From sequence record NC_049391.1: a stretch of DNA of 37,100 nucleotides. One strand, written 5' to 3'. Numbering within the stretch: the stretch's first letter is position 1; each line of letters starts with the position of its first letter. The DNA is from Xuanwuvirus P884B11. The translations under genes and the position numbers were made by a program. Below are positions 6,710 through 37,016 of the stretch, piece after piece. The notes below the pieces were generated by a model that worked only from the letters and a program-made list of their open reading frames with translations, was not told where the DNA came from and ran no database searches.

Positions 6710-6909
6710 TGAAAGTGAAGGCACTGGAAAGCGACACCGTGGATTCGCTCTGTTTCCGGTACTACGGCACGACGCAGGGCGTCACCGAAAAGGTGCTGGA
6801 TGCAAACCCCGGACTCTGTCAGCAGGTATTTCTGGACGCCGGGCAGGAAGTGGAGATGCCGGAGCCGGAGAAGAAGAAACGAGAAATGATTCAGTTGTGG
6901 GGGGAGTAG
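6709..6909 (+). CDS. X: Tail protein X (LysM-like), P2 gpX-like
   Basis: About 67 aa; ATG overlaps the L stop (TGATG); CxRYYG..G..E.VL.ANPGL motif as in P2 X. Confidence 0.8.
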   Translation: MKVKALESDTVDSLCFRYYGTTQGVTEKVLDANPGLCQQVFLDAGQEVEMPEPEKKKREMIQLWGE

Positions 6910-6911
6910 CA

Positions 6912-7235: not shown

Positions 7236-7624
7236 GCAACACATTTAAATTCAGCAGCCGGAGCGAAAAGAATTTGCAGGGCGTAAATCCTGATCTGGTG
7301 AAAGTGACCAGACGGGCACTGGAAATTTCGGAAGTGGATTTTGGTATCACCGAAGGGTTGCGCAGCCGTTACCGCCAGAAGCAACTTGTGGCCACAGGTA
7401 AGAGCCAGACCATGAACAGCCGCCACCTTACGGGACATGCCGTGGATGTTGTGGCTTATATCGGCAGCCAGGTGTCATGGGAATGGCCGCTGTACGAAAA
7501 AATCGCAGCAGCATTCAGACAGGCCAGCCGGGAACTGAATATTCCGGTGGAATGGGGCGGCGACTGGAAGACCCTGAAAGACGGACCGCATTTTCAGTTA
7601 CCACACGGAGCCTATCCGGCATGA
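7232..7624 (+). CDS. Endolysin, peptidase M15 family (zinc D-Ala-D-Ala carboxypeptidase-like / L-Ala-D-Glu peptidase-like)
   Basis: 130 aa; SRHLTGHAVDV and a C-terminal H motif typical of M15/VanY-like peptidases; sits in the lysis-cassette position held by lysozyme K in P2. Confidence 0.75.
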   Translation: MSNTFKFSSRSEKNLQGVNPDLVKVTRRALEISEVDFGITEGLRSRYRQKQLVATGKSQTMNSRHLTGHAVDVVAYIGSQVSWEWPLYEKIAAAFRQASRELNIPVEWGGDWKTLKDGPHFQLPHGAYPA

Positions 7625-8028
7625 AGCTCTGGCCCACGCTGGGCGTCGCTTTCCTTCTGATTGCCGCATGGGGAACATCCATGCGTCTGTCGTGGTCGCT
7701 GGGCCGGGAGAACGCCAGAAACGAAGCGCAGGCCAGCACCCTGAAAAGTACCGCCGACACCCTGAATATCATCAGCGCCGGGGTACAGGATATGCAGCAG
7801 GTGCTGGCGCAACTCCGCGTGGAAAATCAGCAACGCAATCAGGACGGAGAGGTAAGACGTGAACAGCTACGCAACGATATTGCAAAAGATGAATGCGCCC
7901 ACGCTTTGCCTGACGCTCGTTTTACTGACAGGCTGCGCAGGCACGCAGAACGCGCCACTGCCAGCGCCGTCAGTCCGGCTTATACCGCAGACGCTGACCA
8001 TACCGGTAACGCCTCCCCCCTTCCCTGA
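7621..8028 (+). CDS. i-spanin (Rz / P2 LysB-like)
   Basis: ATG at 7621 overlaps the endolysin stop; N-terminal TM (LWPTLGVAFLLIAAWG) then charged coiled-coil-like periplasmic domain; a lipoprotein ORF is nested in another frame. Confidence 0.7.
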   Translation: MKLWPTLGVAFLLIAAWGTSMRLSWSLGRENARNEAQASTLKSTADTLNIISAGVQDMQQVLAQLRVENQQRNQDGEVRREQLRNDIAKDECAHALPDARFTDRLRRHAERATASAVSPAYTADADHTGNASPLP

Positions 8029-8179
8029 TACTCCCACCTGGGGAAATCTCGGTATATGGGGCGACCGCCTTCTGGATGCACTGGAAACCTGTAACGCGGA
8101 TAAACGGGCCATTGAATTACTGGAACAGCGCAGGCTGCAACGACTGAACAACGAGGATAACAACCATGCTGAAAACTGA
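7859..8179 (+). CDS. o-spanin lipoprotein (Rz1 / P2 LysC-like), nested in and extending beyond the i-spanin gene
   Basis: Signal peptide with lipobox LLTGC, proline-rich mature region; overlapped out of frame with the i-spanin ORF. Start could be GTG 7859 or ATG 7889. Confidence 0.65.
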   Translation: MNSYATILQKMNAPTLCLTLVLLTGCAGTQNAPLPAPSVRLIPQTLTIPVTPPPFPDTPTWGNLGIWGDRLLDALETCNADKRAIELLEQRRLQRLNNEDNNHAEN

Positions 8180-8633
8180 TTCCCTGCGTGAAGCCATGAC
8201 CCGTTCATGCCGATGGTGTCAGGCCAACCCGGAAAAATTCACCATTTTCGTGGAGAGCGGCAACATTGAAACGACCGGAGAAACGCCCTCGTTTGTTTAC
8301 CGCTATCAGATGGTGATGTTTGTCATGGATTACGCCGGGGAGCTGGACGACCTCACGCTGCCGCTGCTGGCGTGGTTATCCGAAAATCAGCCACAGTTGT
8401 TGCTCAATCCGGAGCGTAATCAGGACATCAAATTCTCCGCCGTTATCAATGACGATGACAGCGCCGATCTCCTGTTTACGCTCCCCCTGCGGGAACGCGT
8501 TCGCATCACGCGCAGCAGTCAGGGCACACCGCAGGCAGAACACCTGCCTGAGCCAAAACCCCGCCTGCCATCTTCCGAAGGCGACTGGTCGCATGTATTC
8601 CAGGATGTGACGTGGGGTGAAAGCGATGGATAA
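8166..8633 (+). CDS. R: Tail completion protein, P2 gpR-like
   Basis: 155 aa, same length and position as P2 R. Confidence 0.8.
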   Translation: MLKTDSLREAMTRSCRWCQANPEKFTIFVESGNIETTGETPSFVYRYQMVMFVMDYAGELDDLTLPLLAWLSENQPQLLLNPERNQDIKFSAVINDDDSADLLFTLPLRERVRITRSSQGTPQAEHLPEPKPRLPSSEGDWSHVFQDVTWGESDG

Positions 8634-9261
8634 GGCATTCACCCGCGTGGATGAAACCTTTGAGGCCATCCGCGACAGCCTGAATCAGCAGGCCATCAAT
8701 AACATCGCCAGAAAGCTGGCACAGGATTTACGCCGCGCCCAGCAGGCGCGTATCCGGTCACAGAAAGCGCCGGACGGGACCGCGTGGACACCACGCAGAC
8801 GCCGCGTAACCCGGATACAGGAACGCATTCGCTTTATCTGGAATAACGAAGCACGCACGCTGAAAAACTGGCATCACGACACGGGGAAATACGGGCGAAC
8901 CATTACCGGGTGGGATGAGGATAAAAACAATATCCGCACGTTTTACCGGGATGACATCGACCGTTTTCTGGAAATACGCACCCGGCGCATCAACCAGGAC
9001 AGCACAAAGCGCGTCCCCATGTTCGTAAAAATGCGCACCGCCCGCTACCTGAAAGCCCGTGCAGATGCTTCCGGTGTGACGGTGGGTTACAGCGGCGTGG
9101 CTGCACGTATTGCACGCGTTCATCAGTTCGGTGAGCGCGATCAGGTTGCGTCGGGCATTTTCACCGATTACCCGGTACGTGAGCTGTTGGGCATCAGTCA
9201 GGCAGATGAGCGCCTGATTTATAACACTGTGCTGGGCCGGATTGCGGAGGCTGTACGGTGA
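8626..9261 (+). CDS. S: Tail completion / virion morphogenesis protein, P2 gpS-like
   Basis: ORF after R with overlapping start; longer than P2 S (about 211 vs about 150 aa); assigned by position and size class, start codon uncertain (8617 GTG or 8626 ATG). Confidence 0.65.
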   Translation: MDKAFTRVDETFEAIRDSLNQQAINNIARKLAQDLRRAQQARIRSQKAPDGTAWTPRRRRVTRIQERIRFIWNNEARTLKNWHHDTGKYGRTITGWDEDKNNIRTFYRDDIDRFLEIRTRRINQDSTKRVPMFVKMRTARYLKARADASGVTVGYSGVAARIARVHQFGERDQVASGIFTDYPVRELLGISQADERLIYNTVLGRIAEAVR

Positions 9262-9839: not shown

Positions 9840-10186
9840 CAACCCGCTACACAGGAATGAATCCGGACGGGACGGGAAACCTGAACGATACGGAGCACCT
9901 GAAACAGTCAGTCAGGGACATCCTGACCACCCCGCTGGCAAGCCGGGTTATGCGACGGGAATATGGCAGCCTTGTGCCTGATTTGATTGACGAACCCATG
10001 AATAACACCACGCGTCTGCAATGCATGAGTGCTGCCGTGATTGCGCTGACACGATGGGAACCCCGCATTGCCCTGGACGCCATCGACGTTGTCTGGAAAG
10101 CGGGAGGCCGCGCCGGGGTGACGCTGTCGGGCACTGTCATGCAGACCATGCAGAATGTTGAATTAACCATCACGCTGAGGGAGTAA
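9836..10186 (+). CDS. W: Baseplate wedge protein, P2 gpW-like (gp25-like)
   Basis: 116 aa, overlapping start with the V stop; size and position as P2 W. Confidence 0.8.
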   Translation: MTTRYTGMNPDGTGNLNDTEHLKQSVRDILTTPLASRVMRREYGSLVPDLIDEPMNNTTRLQCMSAAVIALTRWEPRIALDAIDVVWKAGGRAGVTLSGTVMQTMQNVELTITLRE

Positions 10187-10189
10187 ATC

Positions 10190-11086
10190 ATGCCCGCCGT
10201 TGACCTTTCCCAGTTACCGGAACCCGCCATCATCGCGGAGCCTGACTTTGAAGCAATTCTGGCTGACACAAAGGCCATGATGATTGCGGCTTATCCCGCC
10301 GAACAGCGTGAAGCCGTTTCCGCCGCGCTGGAGCTGGAATCGGAACCCCTTAACGTTATCGCTCAAACCATGTCGTTTCGTGAAATGCTGTTACGCCAGC
10401 GGGTTAACGAGGGTGCACGCGCCTGCATGTTAAGCCACAGCGCCGGGACAGACCTGGACAACCTCGCGGGCAATATGAACACAAAGCGCCTGGTTATCAC
10501 TCCGGCAACGGATACCACCGACGCGGTGATGGAGAGCGACACCTCGCTGAGACTGCGGGCGCAGCGGGCGTACGACGGCCTGAGTGTTGCTGGCCCGTCA
10601 GGTGCATACGAGTATTTTGCCCGCAGCGCCAGCGGTCTGGTGCGTGATGCGCGGGCTATCAGTCCGTCTCCGGCAAATGTGACGGTTTCCATCCTGTCCA
10701 CTGAAGGCGACGGCACGGCAACGGAGGCGTTGCTTAATACCGTTCGCGCCGTTCTGAATGCAGAGGATACCCGCCCGGTGGCCGACCGCCTGACCGTACA
10801 GAGCGCCAGCATCGTGACATGGCGGCTGAATGCAAAACTGTACTTTTACCCCGGTCCGGAATCCGAACCTATTCTGGCCGCGGCGGAATCGTCATTCAGG
10901 AAGTGGCTGGCTGAACAGGGGCTTATCGGTCAGGACGTGGCGTTGTCCGCCATTGCTGCCGCACTTCATGTACACGGCGTGCAACGCGTGGAGATAATCG
11001 AACCCACACAGAATATGGCCATCAGCGACATACAGGCGGCGCGCTGTGAGTCATTCACCATCAGCGAAGGTGGGCGTAATGAGTAA
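10190..11086 (+). CDS. J: Baseplate assembly protein, P2 gpJ-like
   Basis: 298 aa following W; canonical V-W-J-I order. Confidence 0.8.
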   Translation: MPAVDLSQLPEPAIIAEPDFEAILADTKAMMIAAYPAEQREAVSAALELESEPLNVIAQTMSFREMLLRQRVNEGARACMLSHSAGTDLDNLAGNMNTKRLVITPATDTTDAVMESDTSLRLRAQRAYDGLSVAGPSGAYEYFARSASGLVRDARAISPSPANVTVSILSTEGDGTATEALLNTVRAVLNAEDTRPVADRLTVQSASIVTWRLNAKLYFYPGPESEPILAAAESSFRKWLAEQGLIGQDVALSAIAAALHVHGVQRVEIIEPTQNMAISDIQAARCESFTISEGGRNE

Positions 11087-11611: not shown

Positions 11612-13762
11612 ATGAGTACCACAACACGAAAATTTAAAACCGTTATCACCGATACGGGTGCAAAAAAATTAGCGCAGGCAGCCGCGCCAGATGGTAAGCC
11701 TGTCCGCCTGACTCATATGGCCGTGGGCGACGGTGGCGGTACATTGCCCACACCTGACAGTAAGCAGACCCGTCTGGTGCATGAGGTGTGGCGACACGCT
11801 GTTAATCGCGTCATCCTGGACGCAACACATCAGAACCGCATTATTGCAGAGCTGGTTATTCCTCCAGAAACGGGCGGATTCTGGATCCGGGAAATTGGTG
11901 TATTTGATGAGCACGGCGATTTAATCGCGGTGGGCAATACTGCCGAAAGTTACAAGCCAGCCGTTGCCGAAGGGTCCGGTCGTGCACAAACATTTCGCAC
12001 CATTCTGACCGTATCCAGCACTGCCACCGTGGCGCTTACCGTGGATAACACCATGGTGATGGCCACAGTGGATTACGTGGATGACAAACTGAAAGAGCAT
12101 GAACAGTCACGACGTCACCCGGACGCCTCGCTGACCGCAAAAGGCTTTGTTCAACTCAGTAGCGCCACTAACAGCGTGTCTGAAACGCAGGCTGCAACGC
12201 CGAAAGCGGTTAAGGCCGCGTATGATCTTGCTAACGGTAAATATACTGCGCAGGATGCCAGCACGACGCGAAAAGGCCTTGTCCAGCTCAGTAGCGCCAC
12301 CAACAGCACGTCTGAAACGCAGGCTGCAACGCCGAAAGCAGTAAAGGCCGCGTATGATCTTGCTAACGCAAAATATACCGCTCAGGACGCCACGACAGCA
12401 CAAAAAGGGATTGTCCAGCTCAGTAGTGCCACCAACAGCACGTCTGAAACATTGGCCGCGACATCGAAAGCGGTTAAGGCGGTAATGGATGAAACAAATA
12501 AGAAAGCCCCATTAAACAGCCCGGCGCTGACCGGAACACCAACAACACCAACTGCGCGACAGGGAACGAATAATACCCAAATCGCAAGCACGGCTTTCGT
12601 TATGGCTGCGATTGCCGCCCTTGTAGATTCGTCACCTGATGCACTGAACACGCTGAACGAGCTGGCTGCGGCGTTGGGCAACGACCCGAATTTTGCGACC
12701 ACCATGACTAACGCGCTTGCGGGTAAGCAACCGAAAGATGCCACCCTGACGGCGCTGGCCGGGCTTGCTACTGCGGCAGACAGGTTTCCGTATTTTACGG
12801 GGAATGATGTCGCCAGCCTGGCAACTCTGACAAAAGTCGGGCGGGATATTCTTGCGAAATCGACCGTTGCCGCCGTTATCGAATACCTCGGTTTACAGGA
12901 AACGGTAAACAGGGCTGGTAACGCCGTGCAAAAAAATGGCGATACCTTGTCCGGTGGGCTTACTTTTGAAAATGACTCAATCCTTGCCTGGATTCGAAAT
13001 ACTGACTGGGCGAAGATTGGATTTAAAAATGATGCTGATGGTGACACTGATTCATACATGTGGTTTGAAACAGGCGACAACGGCAATGAATATTTCAAAT
13101 GGAGAAGCCGCCAGAGCACCACAACAAAAGACCTGATGACGCTGAAATGGGATGCACTAAATATTCTGGTAAATGCCGTCATTAATGGCAGTCTTGGAGT
13201 TGGTACGACGAATGCGTTAGGTGGTAGCTCTATTGTTCTTGGTGATAATGACACCGGATTCAAACAGAATGGTGATGGTATTCTGGATGTTTACGCTAAT
13301 AGTCAGCGAGTATTCCGCTTTCAGAATGGAGTTGCTATTGCTTTTAAAAACATTCAGGCAGGTGATAGTAAAAAGTTCTCGCTATCCAGCTCCAACACCT
13401 CCACAAAGAATGCAACGTTTAATTTATGGGGTGCTTCAACCCGTCCAGTAGTTGCAGAGTTAGGCGATGAGGCAGGATGGCATTTCTATAGCCAGCGAAA
13501 TACAGATAACTCGGTAATATTTTCTGTTAACGGTCAGATACAGCCCAGCAACTGGGGGAATTTTGATTCACGCTATGTAAAAGATGTTCGCCTGGGTACG
13601 CGAGTTGTTCAATTGATGGCGCGTGGTGGTCGTTATGAAAAAGCCGGACACGCAATTACCGGATTAAGAATCATTGGTGAAGTAGATGGCGATGATGAAG
13701 CCATCTTCAGACCAATACAAAAATACATCAATGGCACATGGTATAACGTCGCACAGGTGTAA
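11612..13762 (+). CDS. H: Tail fibre protein H (constant N-terminal part fused to currently expressed variable C-terminal tip)
   Basis: 716 aa; the crossover site lies in frame at codons about 422-430 (IEYLGLQE); C-terminus ends INGTWYNVAQV, mirrored by the inverted silent tip (INGTWYNAGSI). Confidence 0.85.
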   Translation: MSTTTRKFKTVITDTGAKKLAQAAAPDGKPVRLTHMAVGDGGGTLPTPDSKQTRLVHEVWRHAVNRVILDATHQNRIIAELVIPPETGGFWIREIGVFDEHGDLIAVGNTAESYKPAVAEGSGRAQTFRTILTVSSTATVALTVDNTMVMATVDYVDDKLKEHEQSRRHPDASLTAKGFVQLSSATNSVSETQAATPKAVKAAYDLANGKYTAQDASTTRKGLVQLSSATNSTSETQAATPKAVKAAYDLANAKYTAQDATTAQKGIVQLSSATNSTSETLAATSKAVKAVMDETNKKAPLNSPALTGTPTTPTARQGTNNTQIASTAFVMAAIAALVDSSPDALNTLNELAAALGNDPNFATTMTNALAGKQPKDATLTALAGLATAADRFPYFTGNDVASLATLTKVGRDILAKSTVAAVIEYLGLQETVNRAGNAVQKNGDTLSGGLTFENDSILAWIRNTDWAKIGFKNDADGDTDSYMWFETGDNGNEYFKWRSRQSTTTKDLMTLKWDALNILVNAVINGSLGVGTTNALGGSSIVLGDNDTGFKQNGDGILDVYANSQRVFRFQNGVAIAFKNIQAGDSKKFSLSSSNTSTKNATFNLWGASTRPVVAELGDEAGWHFYSQRNTDNSVIFSVNGQIQPSNWGNFDSRYVKDVRLGTRVVQLMARGGRYEKAGHAITGLRIIGEVDGDDEAIFRPIQKYINGTWYNVAQV
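12133..12490 (+). repeat. Three tandem ~126-bp (42-aa) repeats inside tail fibre gene H
   Basis: Near-identical units encoding G(F/L/I)VQLSSATNS(V/T)SET(Q/L)AAT(P/S)KAVKA...; visible as DNA repeats. Boundaries approximate. Confidence 0.8.
12876..12901. other. Invertase crossover site (gix/hix/cix-like), left, inside H
   Basis: TTATCGAATACC-TC-GGTTTACAGGAA; inverted repeat of the right site with complementary central dinucleotides (TC vs GA); matches the Gin/Hin-family site pattern of 12-bp half-sites around AAACC..GGTTT. Confidence 0.8.
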
Positions 13763-13765
13763 ATT

Positions 13766-14293
13766 ATGCAGCATTTAAAAAATATTAAGTCCGGAAATCC
13801 AAAAACAAAAGAACAATATCAGCTAACAAAGAATTTTGATGTTATCTGGTTATGGTCCGAAGACGGTAAAAACTGGTATGAGGAAGTAAATAACTTTCAG
13901 GACGACACCATAAAGATTGTATACGACGAAAATAATATTATTGTTGCCATAACCAAAGATGCCTCAACGCTTAATCCCGAAGGCTTTAGTGTCGTTGAGA
14001 TTCCAGATATAACAGCCAATCGTCGTGCCGATGATTCAGGGAAGTGGATGTTTAAGGACGGAACTGTGGTTAAGCGGATTTATACAGCAGACGAACAGCA
14101 ACAACAGGCCGAATCACAAAAGGTCGCGTTGCTTTCTGAAGCTGAAAGCGTTATTCAGCCACTGGAACGCGCTGTCAGGCTGAATATGGCGACGGATGAG
14201 GAACGCACACGACTGGAGTCATGGGAACGCTACAGCGTTCTGGTCAGCCGTGTGGATACAGCAAATCCCGAATGGCCACAAAAGCCTGAGTAA
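13766..14293 (+). CDS. G: Tail fibre assembly protein (chaperone), P2 gpG-like
   Basis: 175 aa directly after H; N-terminus [22 protein letters not shown] is shared with the inverted paralogue at 14322-14855. Confidence 0.85.
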
Positions 14294-14321
14294 AAATTAA
14301 GGCCCAATATCGAGCCTTCTC

Positions 14322-14855
14322 TCATTCTGGTTGTTCGGGAAACGTTACTGGCAGGCTGGAGGTGTCTGTAGATTCGACTTTCTGCGCATAGAGCATCCAC
14401 TCGGTTAATTTTTGTTTATTCTCGTCGGAAATGATGCCCAGCCGTAGCTGTGAGTCCCATAGCTGGGTTTTATCCCTGACAAGTTGCAACAGGCTTTGCT
14501 TTTCATTTTCCGCTTGTTGCCTCTGCTCTTCCTCGGTATAAGTTCGCTTTATCACTACGCCATCTTTGAACAACCATTTCCCCGAAATATCAGCCCGGCG
14601 ATTTGCTGTAATATCAGGTAATTCAACGACGCTTGCGCCTTCCGGATTAATTGCTGAAACATCCTTTTCAATACAAATAATAACGCCGTTATGGTCATAG
14701 ACCATTTTCAAAGTGTCTGGCTGGAAATTCTTTTGTTCCTCATACCAGTTTTTTCCATCATCTGAATAAAGCCATTTGATGTTAAATTGCTTTGTTAGCT
14801 GGTATTGCTCTTTTGTTTTAGGGTTGCCAGCAGTAATGTTTTTTAAGTGCATCAT
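14322..14855 (-). CDS. Alternative tail fibre assembly protein (G-prime) in the invertible segment
   Basis: 177 aa on the minus strand; N-terminal 40 aa nearly identical to G, C-terminus diverged; follows the alternative fibre tip. Confidence 0.8.
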   Translation of the reverse strand: MMHLKNITAGNPKTKEQYQLTKQFNIKWLYSDDGKNWYEEQKNFQPDTLKMVYDHNGVIICIEKDVSAINPEGASVVELPDITANRRADISGKWLFKDGVVIKRTYTEEEQRQQAENEKQSLLQLVRDKTQLWDSQLRLGIISDENKQKLTEWMLYAQKVESTDTSSLPVTFPEQPE

Positions 14856-14857
14856 CG

Positions 14858-15553
14858 TTAAATACTCCCCGCGTTATACCACGTCCCATTAATGCAATAC
14901 TGAATTGGCCTTGCCTGTGTTGTATCAATTAATTCATCACGGTTTCCGTTAACTGAACCCGTAACGACATAACCTGACCTGTCAGACCAGCCGGGACCAT
15001 TCCATGTCTGAACAGATGACAGACCGCCAAGGCGAATACCTGTAATAAACCTTGAGTTACATTCTGCCTGCGTATATGCACCAACATCTCCCGCTGAAGG
15101 TTTTCGTGTCGTGGTATAGAAATCTGACCAACCTAATTCAAACCCATAACCATCACGAGCCGACCTGTAGGAAATGCCACCATTTTTATAATTCACACGG
15201 AATTGTACGGCAGGACAGCTACCAGCATTTATATTAAAGTGAAGAATTAATGCAGATGCACCACTAATCAGGGCGTTATATGCACCACTATCCCAATTCC
15301 ATCCAACGGATGTATCACCATTAACAGTATTACCTGTTTGTCGGAGTGCAAATGCATTGACATTTTTGGCACTAATTGAAATATCGCTAGAACCATCAAA
15401 ACCAACTCCAGCAATTTTTCGTGCTGTTTTCAGCTTTGTTGCAGTAGCGGCATTGCCGGACAGTTCCCCAGAAAGGCCACCGCTGAATGTTTGTCGATTG
15501 GTCCAGGTATTCGCTGTACTGAGTAACGGTATTTTCTCCCCGCTTGTGCCGAG
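14858..15553 (-). CDS. Alternative tail fibre C-terminal segment (promoterless; becomes fused to H after inversion)
   Basis: Minus-strand frame is open from the right crossover site down to the stop at 14858, in the phase that continues H across the site; no start codon or RBS of its own at the 5-prime end. Confidence 0.75.
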   Translation of the reverse strand, partial: LGTSGEKIPLLSTANTWTNRQTFSGGLSGELSGNAATATKLKTARKIAGVGFDGSSDISISAKNVNAFALRQTGNTVNGDTSVGWNWDSGAYNALISGASALILHFNINAGSCPAVQFRVNYKNGGISYRSARDGYGFELGWSDFYTTTRKPSAGDVGAYTQAECNSRFITGIRLGGLSSVQTWNGPGWSDRSGYVVTGSVNGNRDELIDTTQARPIQYCINGTWYNAGSI

Positions 15554-23607: not shown

Positions 23608-23748
23608 ATGTCGCAAAAATCGCTTACGGCCATCACGTTCTGCGTGACGGCAATCCTCATCATCTGGATGCTGCACGGTTCGCTGTGCGAAATACGGATG
23701 AGCTTCTGGGGAGCGGAGTTTGCGGCGTTCTTACAGTGTAAGCAGTAA
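23608..23748 (+). CDS. Hok/Gef-family type I toxin (small membrane peptide)
   Basis: 46-aa ORF missed by the 60-aa track; hydrophobic TM then SLCEIR...AAF core shared with Hok/Gef; GGAG RBS; upstream hairpin (CTAACCT/AGGTTAG) and strong 3-prime hairpin at 23757-23779. Confidence 0.6.
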   Translation: MSQKSLTAITFCVTAILIIWMLHGSLCEIRMSFWGAEFAAFLQCKQ

Positions 23749-23821: not shown

Positions 23822-23931
23822 CAATGCCGTTCAGTTAGTTAAGGAATTGAGGTTCGATAGCCCGAACCTCGCGCAGAGGCAATATGACCGAAAGCCTGAT
23901 TCCTTAATGCCCAAGATGAGTCTCTATTCAT
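23822..23931. repeat. Left ~110-bp terminal inverted repeat of the 1.49-kb element
   Basis: Near-identical to the reverse complement of 25201-25307 (a few substitutions, one 3-bp indel); contains nested sub-palindromes TTAAGGAAT...ATTCCTTAA and GAGGTTCG...CGAACCTC. Confidence 0.8.
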
Positions 23932-24157
23932 AAAAGCGCTTAACTACTCGACATTGGCGGTGTATCCCCCGCATTGTCTGAATGCCGCCTCTTACCTTTC
24001 GCGGTCAACTGACGACTTCTAGTTCTAGAACGCCTTGATTTTTTGTACTTGTACATTGAAAAATAACCATAAATTGTTAGCCTGTGCAGTAGACTCAGTG
24101 GTGGTAACTGGTCAGCATGAAGTGTAAAGTGAATAACGAAGCTCTAAAATTATAGGG

Positions 24158-24406
24158 ATGGTCATGAATAATAAGCTAAAGGTAATTGAGTTAAATAGTC
24201 TTGATCTGTTTCGTAAAGAATTACTAACTACTATAAAGCCAGAGAAAGTAGAGAAATTACTTAGATGGTATCTTCAATCATATGGCGGTGTTAATTTCAA
24301 GTTCGGTTATGACAGACCAATTTTTAGAGCGCGAAAGTGCCCAAATGAATGCGGATATAATAACATCAGTGAGATATATCCCCCTCACCAGAAAAATGTA
24401 AAATAG
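24158..24406 (+). CDS. Hypothetical protein; probable N-terminal part of a frameshift-split RES-domain protein
   Basis: 82-aa ORF ending 6 nt before the next ORF; contains PIFRARK, positioned like the conserved N-terminal Arg of RES domains. Confidence 0.5.
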   Translation: MVMNNKLKVIELNSLDLFRKELLTTIKPEKVEKLLRWYLQSYGGVNFKFGYDRPIFRARKCPNECGYNNISEIYPPHQKNVK

Positions 24407-24411
24407 GCCGA

Positions 24412-24990
24412 ATGAATGATGATGGACAAGCTATCTTCTATGGCGCTTATAGTATCGGAACAGCTTTAGCCGAAATTAATGCAAAAGAAGGGGATTATGT
24501 TCACATAGCTCACTTTAAGATGCCGGAAAATTCAGAGTCTGGAATGCGATGTTTTGCTATCGGTGAGGTCTTTAATGTGTATCACGGTGTAAATACAATT
24601 TCAATTGAAGTGTTTAATGAAATTCGCGACATCATTAGCAGAATTGGTAAGGACGACATCCGAGCTTTGCTATCATATTTGTATATGGATGCCCTTTCTG
24701 CTGAGTTGCTTAATAGTATCAATGCCCATGAGGTAAATTATATTTACTCAAGAATTTTTTGCCGTCTTCTTCTTGATAAATACCCTGATGTTGATGGTCT
24801 TATTTATCCTAGCGCTAAAATAAAAGGGGCCTCAAATATCGCTTTGCGCACAGAAACAGTTAAATTGAGAATGCATTTAGTTGCTAATCTTGTGTTTAAA
24901 GTAAATAAAATTTATCCATATGGAATAGTAGATTTCAGTATAGTAAAACAAGCCAAAGGACATACATCAGATGGGCGCATCGTTTGGTGA
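24412..24990 (+). CDS. RES-domain protein (putative NAD-targeting toxin family), C-terminal part
   Basis: 192-aa ORF; the frame is open upstream to give GR-MNDDGQAIFYGAYSIGTALAE (GRxN...Y...E pattern) and later DGLIYPSAKIKGASNIAL (PS motif), the hallmark RES residues as I recall the family. Confidence 0.55.
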   Translation: MNDDGQAIFYGAYSIGTALAEINAKEGDYVHIAHFKMPENSESGMRCFAIGEVFNVYHGVNTISIEVFNEIRDIISRIGKDDIRALLSYLYMDALSAELLNSINAHEVNYIYSRIFCRLLLDKYPDVDGLIYPSAKIKGASNIALRTETVKLRMHLVANLVFKVNKIYPYGIVDFSIVKQAKGHTSDGRIVW

Positions 24991-25200
24991 GCCAAACTTT
25001 TAGTTAGCTGATTGAAAAACCGATGCGTCAGTTTGCACTGCATGTGGTGTATGGGAAGCGCGGGCTTGTAGTGCAGGTCATTTCAGAAGAAGCTAACGAG
25101 AAAGCTTAGACATACTGTGACTACTAAACAAGCAGAAAGCCCGTGTTTATGGGGGCAATCCACACAACAGGCGATGTCGATTAGTTAATACACTTGTATG

Positions 25201-25307
25201 AATAGAGACTCATTTTTGTGCATTAAGGAATCAGGCTTTCAGTCATCTTGCCTCTGCGCGAGGTTCGGGCTATCGAACCTCAATTCCTTAACTGAACTAC
25301 ATTGCCC
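25201..25307. repeat. Right ~110-bp terminal inverted repeat of the 1.49-kb element
   Basis: Reverse complement of the left repeat at 23822-23931. Confidence 0.8.
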
Positions 25308-25502
25308 TATCTCACAGCTCTAAATGCAAAAATCCCATGAAACTGTGGGTATTTCATCACACACTGACACTGCTCTACCTTTCTATATGTATCACTCTAA
25401 ACCAGTTAATCAATTGGCACTTATCAACAACAAAAAATCTGATAAAATCAAAATGTTTTGTAACAAATTTCAGCTTGTAGTGTTCCAAAGGAGACGGATT
25501 AC

Positions 25503-25835
25503 ATGGCATTAATCAAATGTCCTGAATGCCAGAAAGAGGTCAGCGATTCAGCATTATGTTGCCCTGCTTGTGGTAAACAACTGAAAAAACTTAAGCGTTC
25601 ATTTTTTGGAAAACTCATTAAATGGGCTTTTATATTTTTTAATATTTTTATGATCTATACACTTTTAGTTGGACTAGGAGGCGCTGATGAAATAATAAAC
25701 AATACCACATCCGATGCCGAAAAAGCTGGGGCAGTTATTGGTACGGGCTTAGGTTTAATTGTCATTGGAGGCTTATGGGTTATTGGCGATATCATTATCG
25801 GAATTTTAGTATTTCTTACTAAACCAAAGGGATAA
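25503..25835 (+). CDS. Small zinc-ribbon inner-membrane protein (hypothetical)
   Basis: 110 aa; CPEC...CCPACG zinc ribbon, then two hydrophobic helices; AAGGAG RBS; AT-rich codon usage unlike the phage core. Confidence 0.6.
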   Translation: MALIKCPECQKEVSDSALCCPACGKQLKKLKRSFFGKLIKWAFIFFNIFMIYTLLVGLGGADEIINNTTSDAEKAGAVIGTGLGLIVIGGLWVIGDIIIGILVFLTKPKG

Positions 25836-25839
25836 TAAA

Positions 25840-26733
25840 ATGAAAAATATGATTTTTACTATAGGTGCATTATTTATATCAATTAGTGTACTGCCTGTTC
25901 ACGCAGCAACTGAACATAAGAATTTCAATGCAGTGCTCCAGTGCCGAGCGATAGAAAACAATAAAGACAGACTTTCTTGTTATGATAAGTCAATACAACC
26001 GACTCGAACGAAAGTTGCTGAAAAATTTGAAAGCAGGGATCAATGCCCTGATGAGAAAGATGATGACAAACGTTTATCTTGTTATGATCGTTTTTTTTCT
26101 CCAACATTTACTCCATCTGTAAACTCAAAATCTAAAACGGAAAAGCTAGTAACAACAGAGGCTCAGCAACCAAATCTTTCTGAAATATCTAAATGCCGAG
26201 CAGAAAATGATAAAGAAACCAGACTAAACTGCTACGATAAACTATTCCCACAGGATGAAGCTGTTCAATCTGAATCACAATTAGAGAAAGCCACAGATGC
26301 AGGAAAATGGCACACGTCCATTACTACATCGCCAATTGATGATTCGAAAAATGTAATTTTATCGTTAGAAAGTGATGATTATATCAGAACTCCATTTGGA
26401 GAAGCTGTTACTCCCACTCTGTTTATAGCTTGCCGAGAAAAGAAAACCGAAGTATTTCTTAGTTGGGATGTATATTTAGGCCTTGAACAAACCAGCATGC
26501 TGTATCGTCTTGATAAACAGAAAGCAGTTGAAAGAAACTGGCTAATATCTACAGATACAAAGGCTGTTTTTTATAAAGGTAATGATATTGATTTCATAAG
26601 AAAACTTGCCAACTCACATAAAATGTACACAAAAATAACCCCCTATAATGAAAGCCCTGTAAGTGCAACTTTCAATTTAAGCGGCCTGTCAAATGCACTA
26701 AAACCGCTTCAAGATGCTTGTAACTGGAAATAG
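25840..26733 (+). CDS. Secreted (periplasmic) protein with three tandem Cys-pair repeats (hypothetical)
   Basis: 297 aa; signal peptide ending VHA-A; three copies of C-x11-C-YD(K/R) (QCRAIENNKDRLSCYDK, QCPDEKDDDKRLSCYDR, KCRAENDKETRLNCYDK); starts 5 nt after the previous ORF; AT-rich. Confidence 0.6.
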   Translation: MKNMIFTIGALFISISVLPVHAATEHKNFNAVLQCRAIENNKDRLSCYDKSIQPTRTKVAEKFESRDQCPDEKDDDKRLSCYDRFFSPTFTPSVNSKSKTEKLVTTEAQQPNLSEISKCRAENDKETRLNCYDKLFPQDEAVQSESQLEKATDAGKWHTSITTSPIDDSKNVILSLESDDYIRTPFGEAVTPTLFIACREKKTEVFLSWDVYLGLEQTSMLYRLDKQKAVERNWLISTDTKAVFYKGNDIDFIRKLANSHKMYTKITPYNESPVSATFNLSGLSNALKPLQDACNWK

Positions 26734-26754
26734 TATATACCTCCCCAATATCAG

Positions 26755-26792
26755 ATGACAAAACGCCCGTGAAAACGGGCGTTTTGTCATCT
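26755..26792. terminator. Intrinsic terminator-like hairpin after the accessory cassette
   Basis: Perfect 16-bp inverted repeat GATGACAAAACGCCCG / CGGGCGTTTTGTCATC with a 6-nt loop, T-run within the 3-prime arm. Confidence 0.6.
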
Positions 26793-27071
26793 GTAACTCG
26801 AAAATGTGGTCATTGCGTGGACATACGATGATATAAATCCTTTTATATCAAAAGATTAAACCACTATTATTTTCCTCAACAAGGATTTTTAACCCTTTTT
26901 CAGTCTCTGACAATCTAAGGCTCCTTTATCAACAAACGCCCATTTGCAAACTGCTGTTTAATCTGAAAAAACATTAATAATCACACAGATAACAACATAA
27001 CCATTTAGACGGGCAATACTGAAAAATTGTTATTCAGTATCGCCCTTTAAGCCGTTTCAGGCTATATAAAA

Positions 27072-35086: not shown

Positions 35087-36046
35087 ATGAAAATTTGTAT
35101 CGACGACGGCTCCACCAACATCAAGCTGGCATGGACTGAGAACGGCGAACGCCGCAACGCCATCAGCCCGAACAGCTTCAAGTCGGAATGGTCTGCGCCG
35201 TTCGGTGGCACGCAGCCCGCGAACTACATGCTTGATGGCGTGCGCTATGGTTTTGATCCGGTCAGCGATCGCTTTGTCCAGACGACCGACACGCAATACC
35301 AGTACAGCGATGTGAATATAATTGCCATTCATCACGCGCTGGTCAAATCAGGCATCACACCACAGGAAGTGGATGTGGTTGTCACCCTGCCACTAAGCGA
35401 GTATTTCGATACAAACGCACAGCCGGACATGGCCAACATCAACCGCAAAAAAGCGAACGTCATGCGCCCGGTGGAGTACCAGAACGGCGAAGCATTCACT
35501 ATCCGTAACGTACGGGTTATGCCTGAATCCATTCCGGCTGGCTTTAAGGCACTGGCTGACATGAGTCCGTTTGAATCCCTGCTGATTGTGGATTTGGGCG
35601 GAACCACGCTGGATGTGGCAAAGGTTCAGGGGCAACTGGCAGGTATCAGCCAGGTGTTTTGCGATCCACACGTGGGCGTTTCTCTGATGGCCGATGCCGT
35701 ACTGTCGGTGATGGCCACTAACGGTATGCGCACCAGTCACCACATCGCCAATACCATTATCGAACATCGCCATGATGAAGCCTGGCTGCGCCAGCACATC
35801 CACAATGACGCGCATTACGCCAGCCTGATGGCGGTAATTCGTGAAAAGGAAGAAACACTGAAACAACGCGTGATCCGCGCGCTGGCGGGTTTTTCGGGTT
35901 ACGGGCGGGTGATGGTTGTCGGTGGAGGGGCGGAGATTGTGGCACCCGCTATCCGCGAAGCCTGCGGAGTTAATGCGACTTTCATCGCGGACGGGGTGCC
36001 ACAGTTTGCTCTGGTTAATGGGCTGTACGCAATGGACAAGGAGTAA
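35087..36046 (+). CDS. parM: Actin-like segregation ATPase ParM (StbA) family
   Basis: 319 aa; N-terminus DDGSTNIKLAW, ISPNSFK, YSDVNIIAIHHAL, VMPESIPAG, LIVDLGGTTLD, VVGGGAE track plasmid R1 ParM almost motif for motif as I recall it. Confidence 0.85.
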   Translation: MKICIDDGSTNIKLAWTENGERRNAISPNSFKSEWSAPFGGTQPANYMLDGVRYGFDPVSDRFVQTTDTQYQYSDVNIIAIHHALVKSGITPQEVDVVVTLPLSEYFDTNAQPDMANINRKKANVMRPVEYQNGEAFTIRNVRVMPESIPAGFKALADMSPFESLLIVDLGGTTLDVAKVQGQLAGISQVFCDPHVGVSLMADAVLSVMATNGMRTSHHIANTIIEHRHDEAWLRQHIHNDAHYASLMAVIREKEETLKQRVIRALAGFSGYGRVMVVGGGAEIVAPAIREACGVNATFIADGVPQFALVNGLYAMDKE

Positions 36047-36050
36047 ACCA

Positions 36051-36362
36051 ATGACGACTCCAACCAGACGGATAAGTTTCTATCTGAAGCCCACCGCCGT
36101 CAAGAACGAAGGAGAAGCATGCGCCTGGCTGGACAGCCTTACACCAGAAGCCCGCAAAAGCGGCCAACGCGTGGCTTTTCTGGCCGGGCTGGCACTTCTG
36201 AAAATGAATCCGGCAGAGGCTTATCGACTGGCTGCATGGGCTGGTGATGAAGCGTTATCAGTGACACAAACCAGGACAGAACGCCCCGCATCACAGCCAG
36301 TATCAACCGCACAGATAACCAGTCAGATGGCCGGAAATATCCGGGCGTTATTTCCTGAATAA
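36051..36362 (+). CDS. parR: ParR (StbB) centromere-binding adaptor
   Basis: About 103 aa from MTTPTRR; RRISFYLKP...LDSL...AFLAGLALLKMNP mirrors R1 ParR (RTIAFKLNP...LDSI...ALTAGLALYRQDP); start 5 nt after the parM stop with AAGGAG RBS. Confidence 0.75.
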   Translation: MTTPTRRISFYLKPTAVKNEGEACAWLDSLTPEARKSGQRVAFLAGLALLKMNPAEAYRLAAWAGDEALSVTQTRTERPASQPVSTAQITSQMAGNIRALFPE

Positions 36363-36425
36363 CACAACATCAGGGCGAGTTCGCCCTGCTCTCCACCTCA
36401 GAACATAAACAAGGAGAACGACTTA

Positions 36426-37016
36426 ATGAGCGAAATCAACTATCAGGCATTACGTGAACGTTATTCACCTGTGCCAGTACCGAAATGCCCTATTTGCGGC
36501 GAGGAAATGTCAATTCAGCGAATATCTGGAGCACAGGTTGTTTATGCCTGCTCCGGTTATGGTGATGATGGAGATTTCAAAATTGGCCGAACTCTTGCTG
36601 ACGAACATTATGAAAAATCACGCGTAACAGTGTTGGATGTCGGGGATCCTGAAGTATTGGCGCTACTTGATTGGCTGGAAACCAAAGACAACCGAATCGC
36701 TGAACTGGAAAAAATCGCCACTGACTATGCACTTAAATTCCAGAAAGCACAGGACGCATTAAAGCATGCCGCTTTGCTGCATAGCAGGACGGCGCAACAA
36801 ACAAATAATTTTGCAGTATCGCTTCCGGACATAAGCGAATATTTCATTAATGACGTATTTCAGCCCTTGCGATACGAGCGGGATGTTGAAAGAGCCATCA
36901 TAAAGGCTGGCGGAAAAGCATTGTGGCAGGAGAAACACGAGGACAGAACGCATCAGTCATGCGATGTAAATTGTGGATGGTTTAGCCCACTGACGACAGA
37001 TAAAAATAACACCTGA
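36426..37016 (+). CDS. Hypothetical protein with N-terminal zinc-ribbon-like CxxC motif
   Basis: 196-aa ORF with AAGGAG RBS; CPICGEE...YACSG motif, helical middle; no family recognised. Confidence 0.45.
   Translation: MSEINYQALRERYSPVPVPKCPICGEEMSIQRISGAQVVYACSGYGDDGDFKIGRTLADEHYEKSRVTVLDVGDPEVLALLDWLETKDNRIAELEKIATDYALKFQKAQDALKHAALLHSRTAQQTNNFAVSLPDISEYFINDVFQPLRYERDVERAIIKAGGKALWQEKHEDRTHQSCDVNCGWFSPLTTDKNNT

What the first reader, a model, noticed from the sequence alone, without database searches (positions are those of the whole stretch)
25503..26733. AT-rich two-gene cassette: zinc-ribbon membrane protein plus secreted protein with three C-x11-C-YD repeats
Two tightly coupled genes of clearly lower GC than the phage core lie between the RES element and the candidate attP, ending in a strong terminator. 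The first is cytoplasmic zinc ribbon plus two TM helices, an anti-sigma-like or signal-transducer-like topology. The second has a Sec signal peptide, three repeats of a Cys-pair motif and an unrecognised C-terminal domain of about 150 aa. Gene pairs at this prophage-end position are typically lysogenic-conversion, superinfection-exclusion or defence functions. I cannot assign this pair to any described system.
Basis: partly seen in the sequence, partly recalled or inferred. Interest (0 to 1): 0.65.

Follow-up and report, generated by a model that had tools for sequence, protein, structure and literature searches.

The report
Prophage cargo: DrpB-like plus TagO/VasI-like pair
A P2-like phage carries a self-contained two-gene unit: a small inner-membrane zinc-ribbon protein and an exported protein of the poorly understood "type VI secretion-associated" TagO/VasI family. 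Neither function has been tested, and the unit most plausibly changes the lysogen's cell envelope, perhaps to keep out other phages.

Summary
Two translationally coupled ORFs (25503-25835 and 25840-26733; GC 35-37% against 52-60% in the phage core) sit between a conserved sigma-70-like promoter and a 19-bp hairpin.

The claim of an "unrecognised" C-terminal domain is wrong. Gene 2 matches Pfam VasI (PF11319, 91.7 bits) and RefSeq already calls it TagO. Each C-x11-C-YD repeat is the canonical VasI N-terminal hairpin, here triplicated. The domain models as an IalB-like beta-sandwich.

Gene 1 is a cytoplasmic 4-Cys zinc ribbon fused to a two-helix membrane domain that is distantly similar to the E. 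coli divisome protein and Rcs activator DrpB.

The pair is a conserved cargo unit at the ogr-attR end of P2-like prophages across Enterobacterales:
- 240 of 5426 complete E. coli genomes carry it.
- 65 of 80 viral contigs with gene 2 also have gene 1.
- It is never in a T6SS cluster, and each gene also occurs alone.

No function has been tested. My best guess (0.35) is an envelope-acting lysogenic-conversion or superinfection-exclusion module with gene 2 as effector. It is not a member of the SDIC4 defence system.

Overall this is a moderately interesting new variant of a known kind.

The parts
25421..25448 (+). Sigma-70-type promoter-like site: TTATCA, 16 nt spacer, TAAAAT, with TG at 25440-25441 (extended -10)
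   Evidence: Found by the consensus scan. The same element (consensus TTGTCA-16-TGaTAAAAT) is conserved upstream of gene 1 in Klebsiella, Raoultella, Pectobacterium, Dickeya and Brenneria prophages. There it follows the ogr terminator hairpin. Function is inferred, not shown.
25451..25468 (+). Conserved leader element AAATGTTTTGTAACAAAT, containing the palindrome TGTT-N4-AACA; a possible operator or 5'UTR element
   Evidence: Nearly invariant in the E. coli, Klebsiella and Raoultella copies while the flanking leader diverges. Role unknown.
25490..25493 (+). Shine-Dalgarno GGAG, 9 nt before the gene 1 ATG
   Evidence: Read from the sequence. A purine-rich GGAG/GGGG block is conserved in the alignment.
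25503..25835 (+). Gene 1 (110 aa): cytoplasmic 4-Cys zinc ribbon (C6, C9, C20, C23), basic linker, two transmembrane helices with a ~15-residue periplasmic loop, cytoplasmic C-terminal TKPKG. The membrane part is DrpB/YedR-like.
   Evidence: ORF. Zn-ribbon Pfam hits. AlphaFold model with helices at 34-67 and 71-105. NCBIfam DrpB hit over profile positions 2-84 of 86, E 0.0012; 26 of 34 family members hit it, best E 7e-7. BLASTP against E. coli DrpB residues 7-92 gives 24% identity, E 3e-5. PHROG 6586, unknown function. dN/dS 0.09-0.44.
25840..26733 (+). Gene 2 (297 aa): exported VasI/TagO-family protein
   Evidence: Pfam PF11319 E 5.9e-26, 91.7 bits against a gathering score of 26.5. TIGR03360 79.4 bits, below its cut-off of 124.2. 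RefSeq name 'type VI secretion system-associated protein TagO'. 26% identical to the T6SS-2-embedded TagO of E. coli O157 Sakai. PHROG 1848. dN/dS 0.13-0.15.
25840..25905 (+). Sec-type signal peptide (residues 1-22, cleavage after VHA)
   Evidence: Read from the sequence. Hydrophobic N-termini are conserved in the family alignment. No dedicated predictor was available.
25924..25998 (+). Cys hairpin repeat 1 (residues 29-53; C35 and C47, then YD)
   Evidence: Matches positions 1-26 of the Pfam VasI profile; 3 stretches were found in the N-terminal region alone. Modelled as helix-turn-helix, H29-37 and H41-49.
26026..26100 (+). Cys hairpin repeat 2 (residues 63-87; C69 and C81, then YD)
   Evidence: One of the three stretches matching the VasI profile; helix 75-85 in the model. 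Absent from the 1-repeat homologues and present in the 2- and 3-repeat ones.
26176..26250 (+). Cys hairpin repeat 3 (residues 113-137; C119 and C131, then YD). This is the copy present in every family member.
   Evidence: C119, R128, L129, C131 and D133 are invariant in 42 sequences. Aligns with CRRESAALERLDCYD of the T6SS TagO. Helices 113-120 and 125-135.
26299..26733 (+). VasI beta-sandwich domain (residues ~154-297), with invariant C198 and C294 as a likely disulfide
26752..26793 (.). 19-bp perfect hairpin with an A-tract before it and a T-rich tail after it. Terminator-like and possibly bidirectional; it closes the unit about 100 nt before the attP crossover.
   Evidence: -35 kcal/mol, z -11.5. 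It lies inside the phage-derived DNA, because homology to an integrated copy runs on to 26889.

Best explanation
The region is a classical prophage 'moron': a horizontally acquired, autonomously transcribed cargo unit (promoter, two genes, terminator) next to attP of a P2-like phage. I propose it is expressed in the lysogen and acts in the cell envelope.

Shown:
- Gene 1 is a two-pass membrane protein, modelled with both ends in the cytoplasm (AlphaFold model plus the charged-residue pattern). It has a cytoplasmic zinc ribbon and a DrpB-like membrane domain.
- Gene 2 has a Sec signal and is built from three helical hairpins, each with a conserved Cys pair, joined by disordered linkers, plus an IalB-like beta-sandwich of the VasI/TagO family.
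- The unit is conserved as a unit in P2-like prophages of many Enterobacterales, under purifying selection.
- It is never embedded in a type VI secretion cluster.

Inferred:
- The periplasmic VasI-like protein is the effector. It would bind an envelope component and interfere with entry of foreign DNA or of puncturing devices, that is, superinfection exclusion at or after adsorption.
- The DrpB-like membrane protein is an accessory that tethers, regulates or senses. One possible route is the Rcs envelope-stress pathway, which DrpB is known to trigger.
- Gene 2 is cast as the main actor because it is often carried alone by phages. In the only tested system with a VasI-like fold (SDIC4), the secreted VasI-like protein alone gives protection.
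For: Moron anatomy:
- Low GC.
- A conserved promoter that directly follows the ogr terminator in other lineages.
- A 4-nt gene spacing.
- A strong hairpin after gene 2.

Conservation:
- 240 of 5426 complete E. coli genomes carry it, 237 at full length.
- It is present in phages 500465-2, Shae_phiSM and PhiR44_2.
- The same ogr, gene 1, gene 2, attR order is found in Klebsiella, Raoultella, Pectobacterium, Dickeya and Enterobacter, and in Brenneria, Salmonella and Klebsiella sp. genomes.
- 65 of 80 viral contigs with gene 2 have gene 1 immediately upstream.
- Pairwise distances of the two proteins correlate, r = 0.87, Mantel p = 0.001.
- dN/dS is 0.09-0.44.

Links between the two genes:
- One contig encodes a zinc ribbon-TM-VasI fusion, P0050.
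- A different E. coli P2 lineage places a gene 2 homologue next to an unrelated zinc ribbon + TM2-domain two-helix protein.

Envelope location: signal peptide, conserved Cys pairs, membrane helices.

Not T6SS-linked:
- All prophage contexts lack T6SS genes.
- 0 of 29 non-enterobacterial loci with the closest relatives have T6SS core genes within 10 kb.

Precedents:
- A secreted protein with a VasI-like fold (SDIC4B) gives 10-200-fold phage protection on its own (bioRxiv 10.1101/2024.01.28.577318).
- Multicopy DrpB activates Rcs, and this depends on T89 (PMC11709261). T89 aligns with the near-invariant T106 of gene 1.
Against: - There is no experimental datum for this pair.
- PADLOC models give no hit.
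- Gene 2 has no sequence or profile similarity to SDIC4B (BLASTP E 50; hhalign probability 0.9%). The defence precedent therefore rests on a fold-level statement in a preprint, which I could not re-test.
- The DrpB similarity is weak: 19 bits against a cut-off of 50, and hhalign probability 13%.
- The ogr-att locus is not one of the named P2 defence hotspots in the two surveys read.
- Each gene occurs without the other, so functional coupling is not proven.
- Expression in lysogens is inferred from a consensus promoter only.
Confidence: 0.35

Rival explanations
1. Type VI secretion accessory or counter-measure. The prophage supplies an extra TagO/VasI in trans. It would either tune the host's own T6SS membrane complex or protect the lysogen's periplasm against incoming T6SS attack. 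Gene 1 would serve as its membrane partner.
For: - Gene 2 is a genuine sequence-level member of PF11319.
- It is 26% identical to the TagO next to clpV in the E. coli O157 T6SS-2 cluster. The shared features include the Cys hairpin and both domain Cys.
- Most hosts of the cassette (Klebsiella, Pectobacterium, Dickeya, Enterobacter, many E. coli) generally carry T6SSs (from general knowledge, not tested here).
Against: - The cassette never lies in or next to a T6SS cluster.
- The closest non-enterobacterial relatives are orphans with no T6SS core gene within 10 kb in 0 of 29 loci.
- It scores below the NCBIfam VasI equivalog cut-off.
- No gene 1-like gene is present in the O157 T6SS-2 locus.
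- The function of TagO itself is listed as unknown in a 2026 review (PMC13584744), so this reading explains little.
Confidence: 0.17
2. Envelope-stress or divisome modulator. Gene 1 is the active component. As a phage-borne DrpB paralogue it would switch on the Rcs (capsule) and/or Psp responses, or act on septal peptidoglycan remodelling. That would change surface properties or growth of the lysogen. Gene 2 would be a periplasmic co-factor.
For: - Gene 1 aligns colinearly with DrpB across both helices. It shares the RSxxGK...W.F start and the TRPK end, including the residue equivalent to DrpB T89, which is required for Rcs induction.
- Gene 1 homologues are also stand-alone genes: chromosomal in Pantoea and Haemophilus, and carried alone by other phage contigs. 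This shows it can work without gene 2.
- Capsule is known to restrict infection by a P2-like phage in E. coli HS (PMC13622650).
Against: - The homology is weak and below curated thresholds.
- The DrpB effects were seen only on overproduction, and no phenotype of the single-copy gene is known.
- DrpB has no zinc ribbon.
- This reading does not explain why gene 2 is the more widely phage-borne partner.
Confidence: 0.15
3. Two independent cargo genes that merely travel together. They sit in the same insertion-prone spot and share a transcript, but they do not act on the same process.
For: - Both genes are found alone in other P2-like and unrelated phage contigs and in chromosomes.
- The same locus in this window also holds an unrelated hok/gef gene and a RES-toxin insertion.
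- The correlated divergence is expected from simple linkage.
Against: - The 4-nt spacing and gene order persist after synonymous sites are saturated.
- 65 of 80 viral loci keep the pair.
- A fusion protein exists.
- An analogous zinc ribbon + two-helix protein is the neighbour of gene 2 in another lineage.
Confidence: 0.15

Closest known systems
TagO / VasI (Pfam PF11319, TIGR03360), T6SS-associated protein of unknown function, e.g. V. cholerae VCA0118 and E. coli O157 ECs_0222
   Same: - Signal peptide.
- N-terminal C-x11-C-YD hairpin.
- About 150-residue beta-sandwich with two conserved Cys.
- Pfam score well above threshold.
- 26% identity to the cluster-embedded E. coli protein.
   Different: - Encoded on a phage next to attP rather than in a T6SS cluster.
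- Hairpin triplicated on disordered linkers; homologues carry 1, 2 or 3 copies.
- Below the NCBIfam equivalog cut-off.
- Preceded by a zinc-ribbon membrane protein that T6SS loci lack.
SDIC4 anti-phage system of Serratia defence islands (bioRxiv 10.1101/2024.01.28.577318)
   Same: - A small operon whose key product is a Sec-exported protein. The authors report it to have a VasI-like fold.
- Not located in T6SS clusters.
- In subtype II a small multi-pass membrane protein is encoded directly upstream of it.
   Different: - No detectable sequence or profile similarity to gene 2; SDIC4B belongs to a different Pfam family, PF27224.
- SDIC4B has no Cys hairpins.
- SDIC4A is a secreted protein, not a zinc-ribbon membrane protein.
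- SDIC4 is linked to BrxR, which is absent here.
DrpB (YedR), E. coli septal-ring protein and multicopy RcsF-independent Rcs activator (PMC7648144, PMC11709261)
   Same: - About 85 residues with two transmembrane helices, both ends in the cytoplasm and a short periplasmic loop.
- Colinear alignment at 24% identity.
- Conserved distal end of helix 2 with T-R/K-P-K/R, including the T89 equivalent.
   Different: - Gene 1 carries an extra N-terminal 4-Cys zinc ribbon.
- The similarity is below the curated cut-off.
- Gene 1 is phage-borne and operon-linked to a periplasmic protein.
T4 Imm/Sp superinfection exclusion pair (recalled from the literature, not tested here)
   Same: A small inner-membrane protein plus a periplasm-facing protein, made by a phage to block DNA entry by later-arriving phages. 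This is the architecture I propose here.
   Different: No homology is claimed or tested. Imm/Sp are encoded by a lytic phage and are not an operon of this form.
IalB (Bartonella invasion-associated locus B, PDB 3dtd) and the N-terminal domain of Vibrio MotY
   Different: 15-17% identity only. IalB has no assigned molecular mechanism. MotY-N docks onto the flagellar basal body.

Membership tests
VasI/TagO (PF11319 / TIGR03360) | Match to the Pfam VasI profile above the gathering score | tested here: met
   91.7 bits against 26.5, E 5.9e-26, covering profile positions 1-184.
VasI/TagO (PF11319 / TIGR03360) | N-terminal Cys-x11-Cys-Y/F-D hairpin followed by a domain with two conserved Cys | tested here: met
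   Each of the three repeats matches profile positions 1-26. C119, C131, C198 and C294 are invariant. The same features are present in the T6SS-embedded ECs_0222.
VasI/TagO (PF11319 / TIGR03360) | NCBIfam equivalog score for VasI (TIGR03360) | tested here: not met
   79.4 bits against a cut-off of 124.2.
VasI/TagO (PF11319 / TIGR03360) | Encoded within a type VI secretion gene cluster (the basis of the name 'T6SS-associated') | tested here: not met
   The gene lies between ogr/hok/RES and attP of a P2-like phage. All homologous enterobacterial loci are prophage ends. 0 of 29 more distant loci have T6SS core genes within 10 kb.
SDIC4 anti-phage system | Homologue of SDIC4B (PF27224) | tested here: not met
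   BLASTP E 50. hhalign of the two family alignments gives probability 0.9%.
SDIC4 anti-phage system | SDIC4A-type (subtype I) or SDIC4C/D/E-type (subtype II) partner genes | tested here: not met
   By inspection of the translated SDIC4A sequence, it is a 150-residue protein with a signal-peptide-like N-terminus and no zinc ribbon. The partner here is a zinc ribbon + two-helix membrane protein.
SDIC4 anti-phage system | Protection against phage infection | not testable with these tools
   Needs plating assays.
DrpB/YedR | NCBIfam NF038392 equivalog score | tested here: not met
   19.1 bits against a cut-off of 50, although nearly the whole profile (positions 2-84 of 86) is covered. 26 of 34 family members hit it, best E 7e-7.
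DrpB/YedR | Two transmembrane helices, both termini cytoplasmic, conserved distal helix 2 with T89 | tested here: met
   Model helices at 34-67 and 71-105. Basic residues flank both ends. DrpB Y-T89-R-P-R aligns with L-T106-K-P-K, which is near invariant.
DrpB/YedR | Septal localisation, suppression of an ftsEX deletion, Rcs induction | not testable with these tools
   Experimental properties (PMC7648144, PMC11709261).
Prophage moron (autonomous cargo transcription unit) | Own promoter and terminator, deviant base composition, variable presence among related phages | tested here: met
   Promoter-like site conserved across genera and placed after the ogr terminator. Hairpin. GC 0.35-0.37. The cassette is present in only 240 of 5426 complete E. 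coli genomes, and related P2-like prophages carry gene 2 alone, gene 1 alone, or a different zinc-ribbon TM2 partner at the same ogr-att locus.
Zinc-finger anti-sigma factor | Anti-sigma zinc-finger domain and an adjacent ECF sigma-factor gene | tested here: not met
   No anti-sigma family appears among the Pfam or NCBIfam hits at E up to 1. The neighbours are a RES ORF and the integrase.

The most novel reading that the evidence does not exclude
Periplasmic VasI-fold proteins form one broad functional class that guards the envelope against contractile puncturing devices: phage tails, tailocins and T6SS spikes. The T6SS-cluster TagO, the defence-island SDIC4B and this prophage cargo would be three deployments of the same idea. 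The phage version would be tethered or regulated by a DrpB-like zinc-ribbon membrane protein that reports to the cytoplasm. If true, the long-unknown role of TagO/VasI would become testable through a simple phage-plating phenotype.
Probability: 0.1. Interest if true: 0.8.

Novelty: new variant of a known kind. Interest (0 to 1): 0.45.

Why it matters
TagO/VasI is one of the T6SS accessory proteins still listed with unknown function. This work shows three things about it:
- A large clade of the family is not T6SS-linked at all.
- That clade is a very common cargo of P2-like prophages in clinically important Enterobacterales.
- In those prophages it is usually coupled to a DrpB-like zinc-ribbon membrane protein.

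This flags a systematic over-annotation ("type VI secretion system-associated", and "virulence" in one prophage survey). It also offers a compact two-gene unit in which the family's function could be tested by phage plating, Rcs reporters and T6SS competition. If it is an exclusion system, it would add an envelope-level mechanism to the P2 accessory repertoire, at a locus not named among the P2 defence hotspots in the two surveys I read.

Tried and rejected
- PADLOC: no hit for either protein.
- PHROGs: families 6586 and 1848 only, both of unknown function.
- PDB sequence search for gene 2: nothing meaningful, best E 0.049 to an unrelated Tubby protein.
- SDIC4 membership: rejected. I took SDIC4A, B and E from the plasmid sequences in the preprint's supplement. 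There was no BLASTP similarity and SDIC4A/B/E gave no Pfam hits. hhalign against an SDIC4B family alignment gave probability 0.9%.
- Anti-sigma or signal-transducer reading of gene 1: no supporting family hit and no sigma gene nearby.
- Conserved partner genes around distant gene 2 relatives: all-against-all comparison of neighbouring ORFs in 30 loci found none.
- AlphaFold-database fold search (afdb50): library unavailable.
- BFVD search: only uncharacterised proteins of T4-like phages.
- Literature: no functional study of this pair. Two P2 hotspot papers do not mention ogr, TagO, VasI or zinc-ribbon genes. The C. rodentium prophage survey only lists phiSM ORF1 as a 'T6SS VasI family protein'.
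Full report
**1. What is in the sequence**

The window is a complete P2-like phage genome in virion order: portal and terminase at the left, tail genes, gpD, ogr, then attP, integrase, repressor and gpA. This follows from the ORF map and from the annotation of a 99.9% identical prophage in E. coli O145 FWSEC0002. An IMG/VR contig carries a 100% identical gene 2.

The two ORFs of the finding are exactly where stated: 25503-25835 (110 aa) and 25840-26733 (297 aa), 4 nt apart. GC content is 0.35-0.37 here, against 0.52-0.61 in the structural genes. Both genes are real. Each has dozens of homologue clusters, and dN/dS against diverged copies is 0.09-0.44.

**2. The transcription unit**

- A sigma-70-like site, TTATCA-16-TAAAAT with an upstream TG, lies at 25421-25448.
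- I aligned the leaders of ten diverged copies. In lineages where gene 1 directly follows ogr, a GC-rich terminator-like hairpin closes ogr. It is followed by the same promoter (consensus TTGTCA-16-TGaTAAAAT) and then by a conserved AAATGTTTTGTAACAAAT element.
- Downstream of gene 2 there is a 19-bp perfect hairpin at 26752-26793, -35 kcal/mol, z = -11.5.
- Homology with the integrated prophage continues to 26889, so the hairpin is phage DNA and the attP crossover lies about 100 nt further on.

This anatomy of terminator, promoter, two genes, terminator and deviant composition is that of a prophage moron. Transcription in lysogens is inferred, not shown.

**3. Gene 1**

- The N-terminus holds four Cys (C6, C9, C20, C23). 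Three are invariant and one nearly so in 34 homologues. It gives weak Pfam zinc-ribbon hits.
- The AlphaFold model shows a small ribbon followed by two long helices, residues 34-67 and 71-105.
- Basic residues before helix 1 and the C-terminal TKPKG place both ends in the cytoplasm.
- NCBIfam's DrpB/YedR model aligns over almost its whole length: profile positions 2-84 of 86, E 0.0012, 19 bits against a cut-off of 50.
- 26 of 34 family members hit that model, best E 7e-7.
- Newer precomputed Pfam annotation marks some homologues as PF28000 DrpB, at the 'weak' level where a mark is shown.
- BLASTP against E. coli K-12 DrpB aligns residues 25-109 with DrpB 7-92, at 24% identity and E 3e-5 for the single comparison. 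hhalign gives E 0.002 but only 13% probability.
- The alignment pairs DrpB Y-T89-R-P-R with gene 1 L-T106-K-P-K. T106, P108 and K109 are nearly invariant in the family.

What is known about DrpB:
- It is a septal-ring protein (PMC7648144).
- In multicopy it activates the Rcs phosphorelay independently of RcsF and through the RcsC periplasmic domain (PMC11709261).
- T89A abolishes that activation.

I regard gene 1 as a probable distant DrpB relative with an added zinc ribbon. It is not a demonstrated member of the family.

**4. Gene 2**

- The C-terminal region is not unrecognised. Pfam VasI (PF11319) matches with E 5.9e-26, 91.7 bits against a gathering score of 26.5. TIGR03360 matches at 79 bits, below its equivalog cut-off of 124.
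- RefSeq annotates the gene as 'type VI secretion system-associated protein TagO'.
- The N-terminal 120 residues alone match VasI profile positions 1-26 three times. The C-x11-C-YD repeats are therefore the family's own N-terminal hairpin, triplicated.
- Homologues carry one, two or three copies, at lengths of about 210, 250 and 297 residues.
- The last hairpin and the domain hold the invariant residues C119, R128, L129, C131, D133, W157, D167, D168, C198 and C294.
- In the model the hairpins are helix-turn-helix units on disordered linkers. Residues 156-297 form a confident beta-sandwich, pLDDT about 86-96.
- Among viral predicted structures, the matches are uncharacterised proteins of T4-like phages.
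- The TagO encoded next to clpV in the E. coli O157 Sakai T6SS-2 cluster is 26% identical over hairpin 3 plus the domain. It shares the hairpin motif and both domain Cys and scores 179 bits on Pfam VasI.

**5. Distribution and context**

- In complete E. coli genomes the 1.5-kb unit is present in 240 of 5426, and 237 of those copies cover at least 80% of the query. It is mostly chromosomal, with nine plasmid copies.
- The plasmid copies are remnants of an ogr-hok-gene 1-gene 2 segment on ETEC plasmids, with gene 2 split.
- It is present in phage 500465-2, Citrobacter phage Shae_phiSM and PhiR44_2.
- Diverged pairs (40-70% protein identity) sit in the same place, directly after ogr at the attR end. 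This holds for P2-like prophages of Klebsiella, Raoultella, Pectobacterium, Dickeya and Enterobacter, and for Brenneria, Salmonella and Klebsiella sp. genomes.
- In IMG/VR, 65 of 80 contigs with gene 2 have gene 1 immediately upstream.
- Distances between gene 1 copies and between gene 2 domains correlate, r = 0.87, Mantel p = 0.001 over 31 unique pairs. This shows long co-inheritance, which linkage alone would also produce.

The pair is not obligate:
- Gene 1 homologues are single chromosomal genes in Pantoea (between cueR and copA) and in Haemophilus paracuniculus (between uvrB and leuB).
- Gene 1 also occurs alone in other phage contigs.
- Gene 2 homologues occur alone in several settings: convergent with ogr, directly upstream of an integrase, or as orphans.

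Two observations argue for a functional link:
- One contig encodes a zinc ribbon-TM-VasI fusion, P0050.
- In a different E. coli P2 lineage at the ytfP site, the neighbour of the gene 2 homologue is a 98-residue zinc ribbon + TM2-domain protein. That is the same architecture built from an unrelated membrane domain.

**6. Relation to T6SS**

- None of the prophage contexts contains T6SS genes.
- A scan of one genome per species returned 40 loci. I probed them with nine T6SS core proteins from the O157 cluster (TssA, TssB, TssC, TssF, TssH, TssK, TssL, TssM, VgrG) and Hcp.
- None of the 29 loci outside Enterobacterales had T6SS genes within 10 kb. The hosts include Shewanella, Vibrio, Photobacterium, Pseudomonas and Caulobacter. 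The only hit was a single TssH/ClpB-like match 8.5 kb away in one locus (L061), which I read as a probable ClpB rather than a T6SS component.
- Their neighbours share no conserved gene.
- The family is large: 6267 representatives at 50% identity with E below 0.001.
- The clade to which gene 2 belongs is thus 'T6SS-associated' in name only.
- A 2026 review still lists TagO/VasI function as unknown.
- The C. rodentium prophage survey classed phiSM ORF1 as a virulence-related 'T6SS VasI family protein' on annotation alone.

**7. Relation to known defence systems**

- A preprint on Serratia defence islands reports SDIC4. Its secreted component SDIC4B has a VasI-like fold by HHpred and alone gives 10-200-fold protection.
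- I extracted the SDIC4 sequences from the supplement.
- SDIC4B shows no sequence similarity to gene 2 and gives no Pfam hit in the library copy I scanned. It belongs to a separate family, PF27224.
- Profile-profile comparison of the two families gives 0.9% probability.
- By inspection of its translated sequence, SDIC4A is a 150-residue protein with a signal-peptide-like N-terminus and no zinc ribbon, not a zinc-ribbon membrane protein.

The pair is therefore not an SDIC4 system. The precedent remains a fold-level analogy that I could not re-test.

PADLOC has no matching model. The two P2 hotspot surveys I read do not name the ogr-att locus or these genes.

**8. Interpretation**

Shown:
- It is a conserved, autonomously organised, envelope-targeted two-gene cargo unit of P2-like phages.
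- It consists of a DrpB-like zinc-ribbon membrane protein and a VasI/TagO-family periplasmic protein.

Inferred: I think the most likely role (0.35) is lysogenic conversion of the envelope, specifically exclusion of incoming phages or similar puncturing devices. Gene 2 would be the effector and gene 1 a tether, regulator or sensor, possibly signalling through Rcs.

Rivals:
- A T6SS-related role (0.17).
- A gene 1-driven envelope-stress or division effect (0.15).
- Two independent cargo genes (0.15).

All of these can be separated by simple experiments, listed under next steps.

**9. Verdict**

- Novelty: a new variant of a known kind, namely a phage-borne VasI/TagO with a triplicated hairpin and a DrpB-like partner.
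- Interest is moderate.

Noticed in passing
window 23822-25304 (inverted repeats 23833-23954 and 25174-25298; RES ORFs 24158-24406 and 24412-24990): The RES-toxin segment is a ~1.5-kb insertion bracketed by 125-bp inverted repeats that are 91% identical. It is absent from phages 500465-2 and Shae_phiSM, where hok is followed directly by the gene 1 leader. In this window the RES gene is split by a 1-nt deletion in a C-run after position 24385, relative to the intact 275-codon gene of E. coli O145 FWSEC0002.
   Followed up: partly
window 23608-23748 (+): A 46-codon ORF that corresponds to the gene annotated as Hok/Gef family in the near-identical prophage (L001 6308-6448). The ogr-attP interval therefore holds three separate cargo units: hok, RES and the gene 1-gene 2 pair.
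   Followed up: no
window 25451-25468: The leader element AAATGTTTTGTAACAAAT, with palindrome TGTT-N4-AACA, lies just downstream of the -10 hexamer. It is almost invariant in the E. coli, Klebsiella and Raoultella copies while surrounding bases vary. It may be an operator for an unknown regulator.
   Followed up: no
L006-L009 (Pantoea), gene at 10001-10333; L008 10824-11846: In Pantoea a 69%-identical gene 1 homologue is a single chromosomal gene between cueR (MerR family) and copA. In one strain a P2-like prophage is integrated immediately downstream, with its integrase next to the gene. This hints at how such a gene could be picked up by a phage.
   Followed up: no
L018-L020 (E. coli), 8001-9126: A different P2-like prophage, at the ytfP site, carries a 250-residue two-hairpin gene 2 homologue. 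It is convergent with a 98-residue zinc ribbon + TM2-domain (PF05154) protein. This is the same architecture as gene 1 but with an unrelated membrane domain.
   Followed up: partly
protein P0050 (Logan contig, 14.6 kb): A single 243-residue protein joins the first ~29 residues of gene 1 (the zinc ribbon) to a signal-anchor and a one-hairpin VasI domain. It is either a natural fusion or an in-frame deletion of the membrane helices. It was seen on one contig only.
   Followed up: no
L025 (plasmid pCss165Kan, NC_022333.1) 6344-8360: Eleven E. coli plasmids, including ETEC plasmid pCss165Kan, carry an ogr-hok-gene 1-gene 2 remnant at ~89% identity. In at least ten of them, by their annotation, gene 2 is broken into two ORFs. 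This is a decayed P2 fragment on a conjugative plasmid.
   Followed up: no
L037-L065 (genome-contig loci): The closest relatives of this 'T6SS-associated TagO' outside Enterobacterales are stand-alone genes in unrelated neighbourhoods, with no T6SS core gene within 10 kb. The database product name over-reaches for this clade.
   Followed up: yes
window 13001-15500 and 35087-37016: A second low-GC stretch (0.39-0.49) lies around the tail-fibre and adjacent ORFs. ORFs of 319 and 196 codons lie between gpA and the right end of the window, the position of the main P2 defence hotspot described in the literature. Neither was examined.
   Followed up: no
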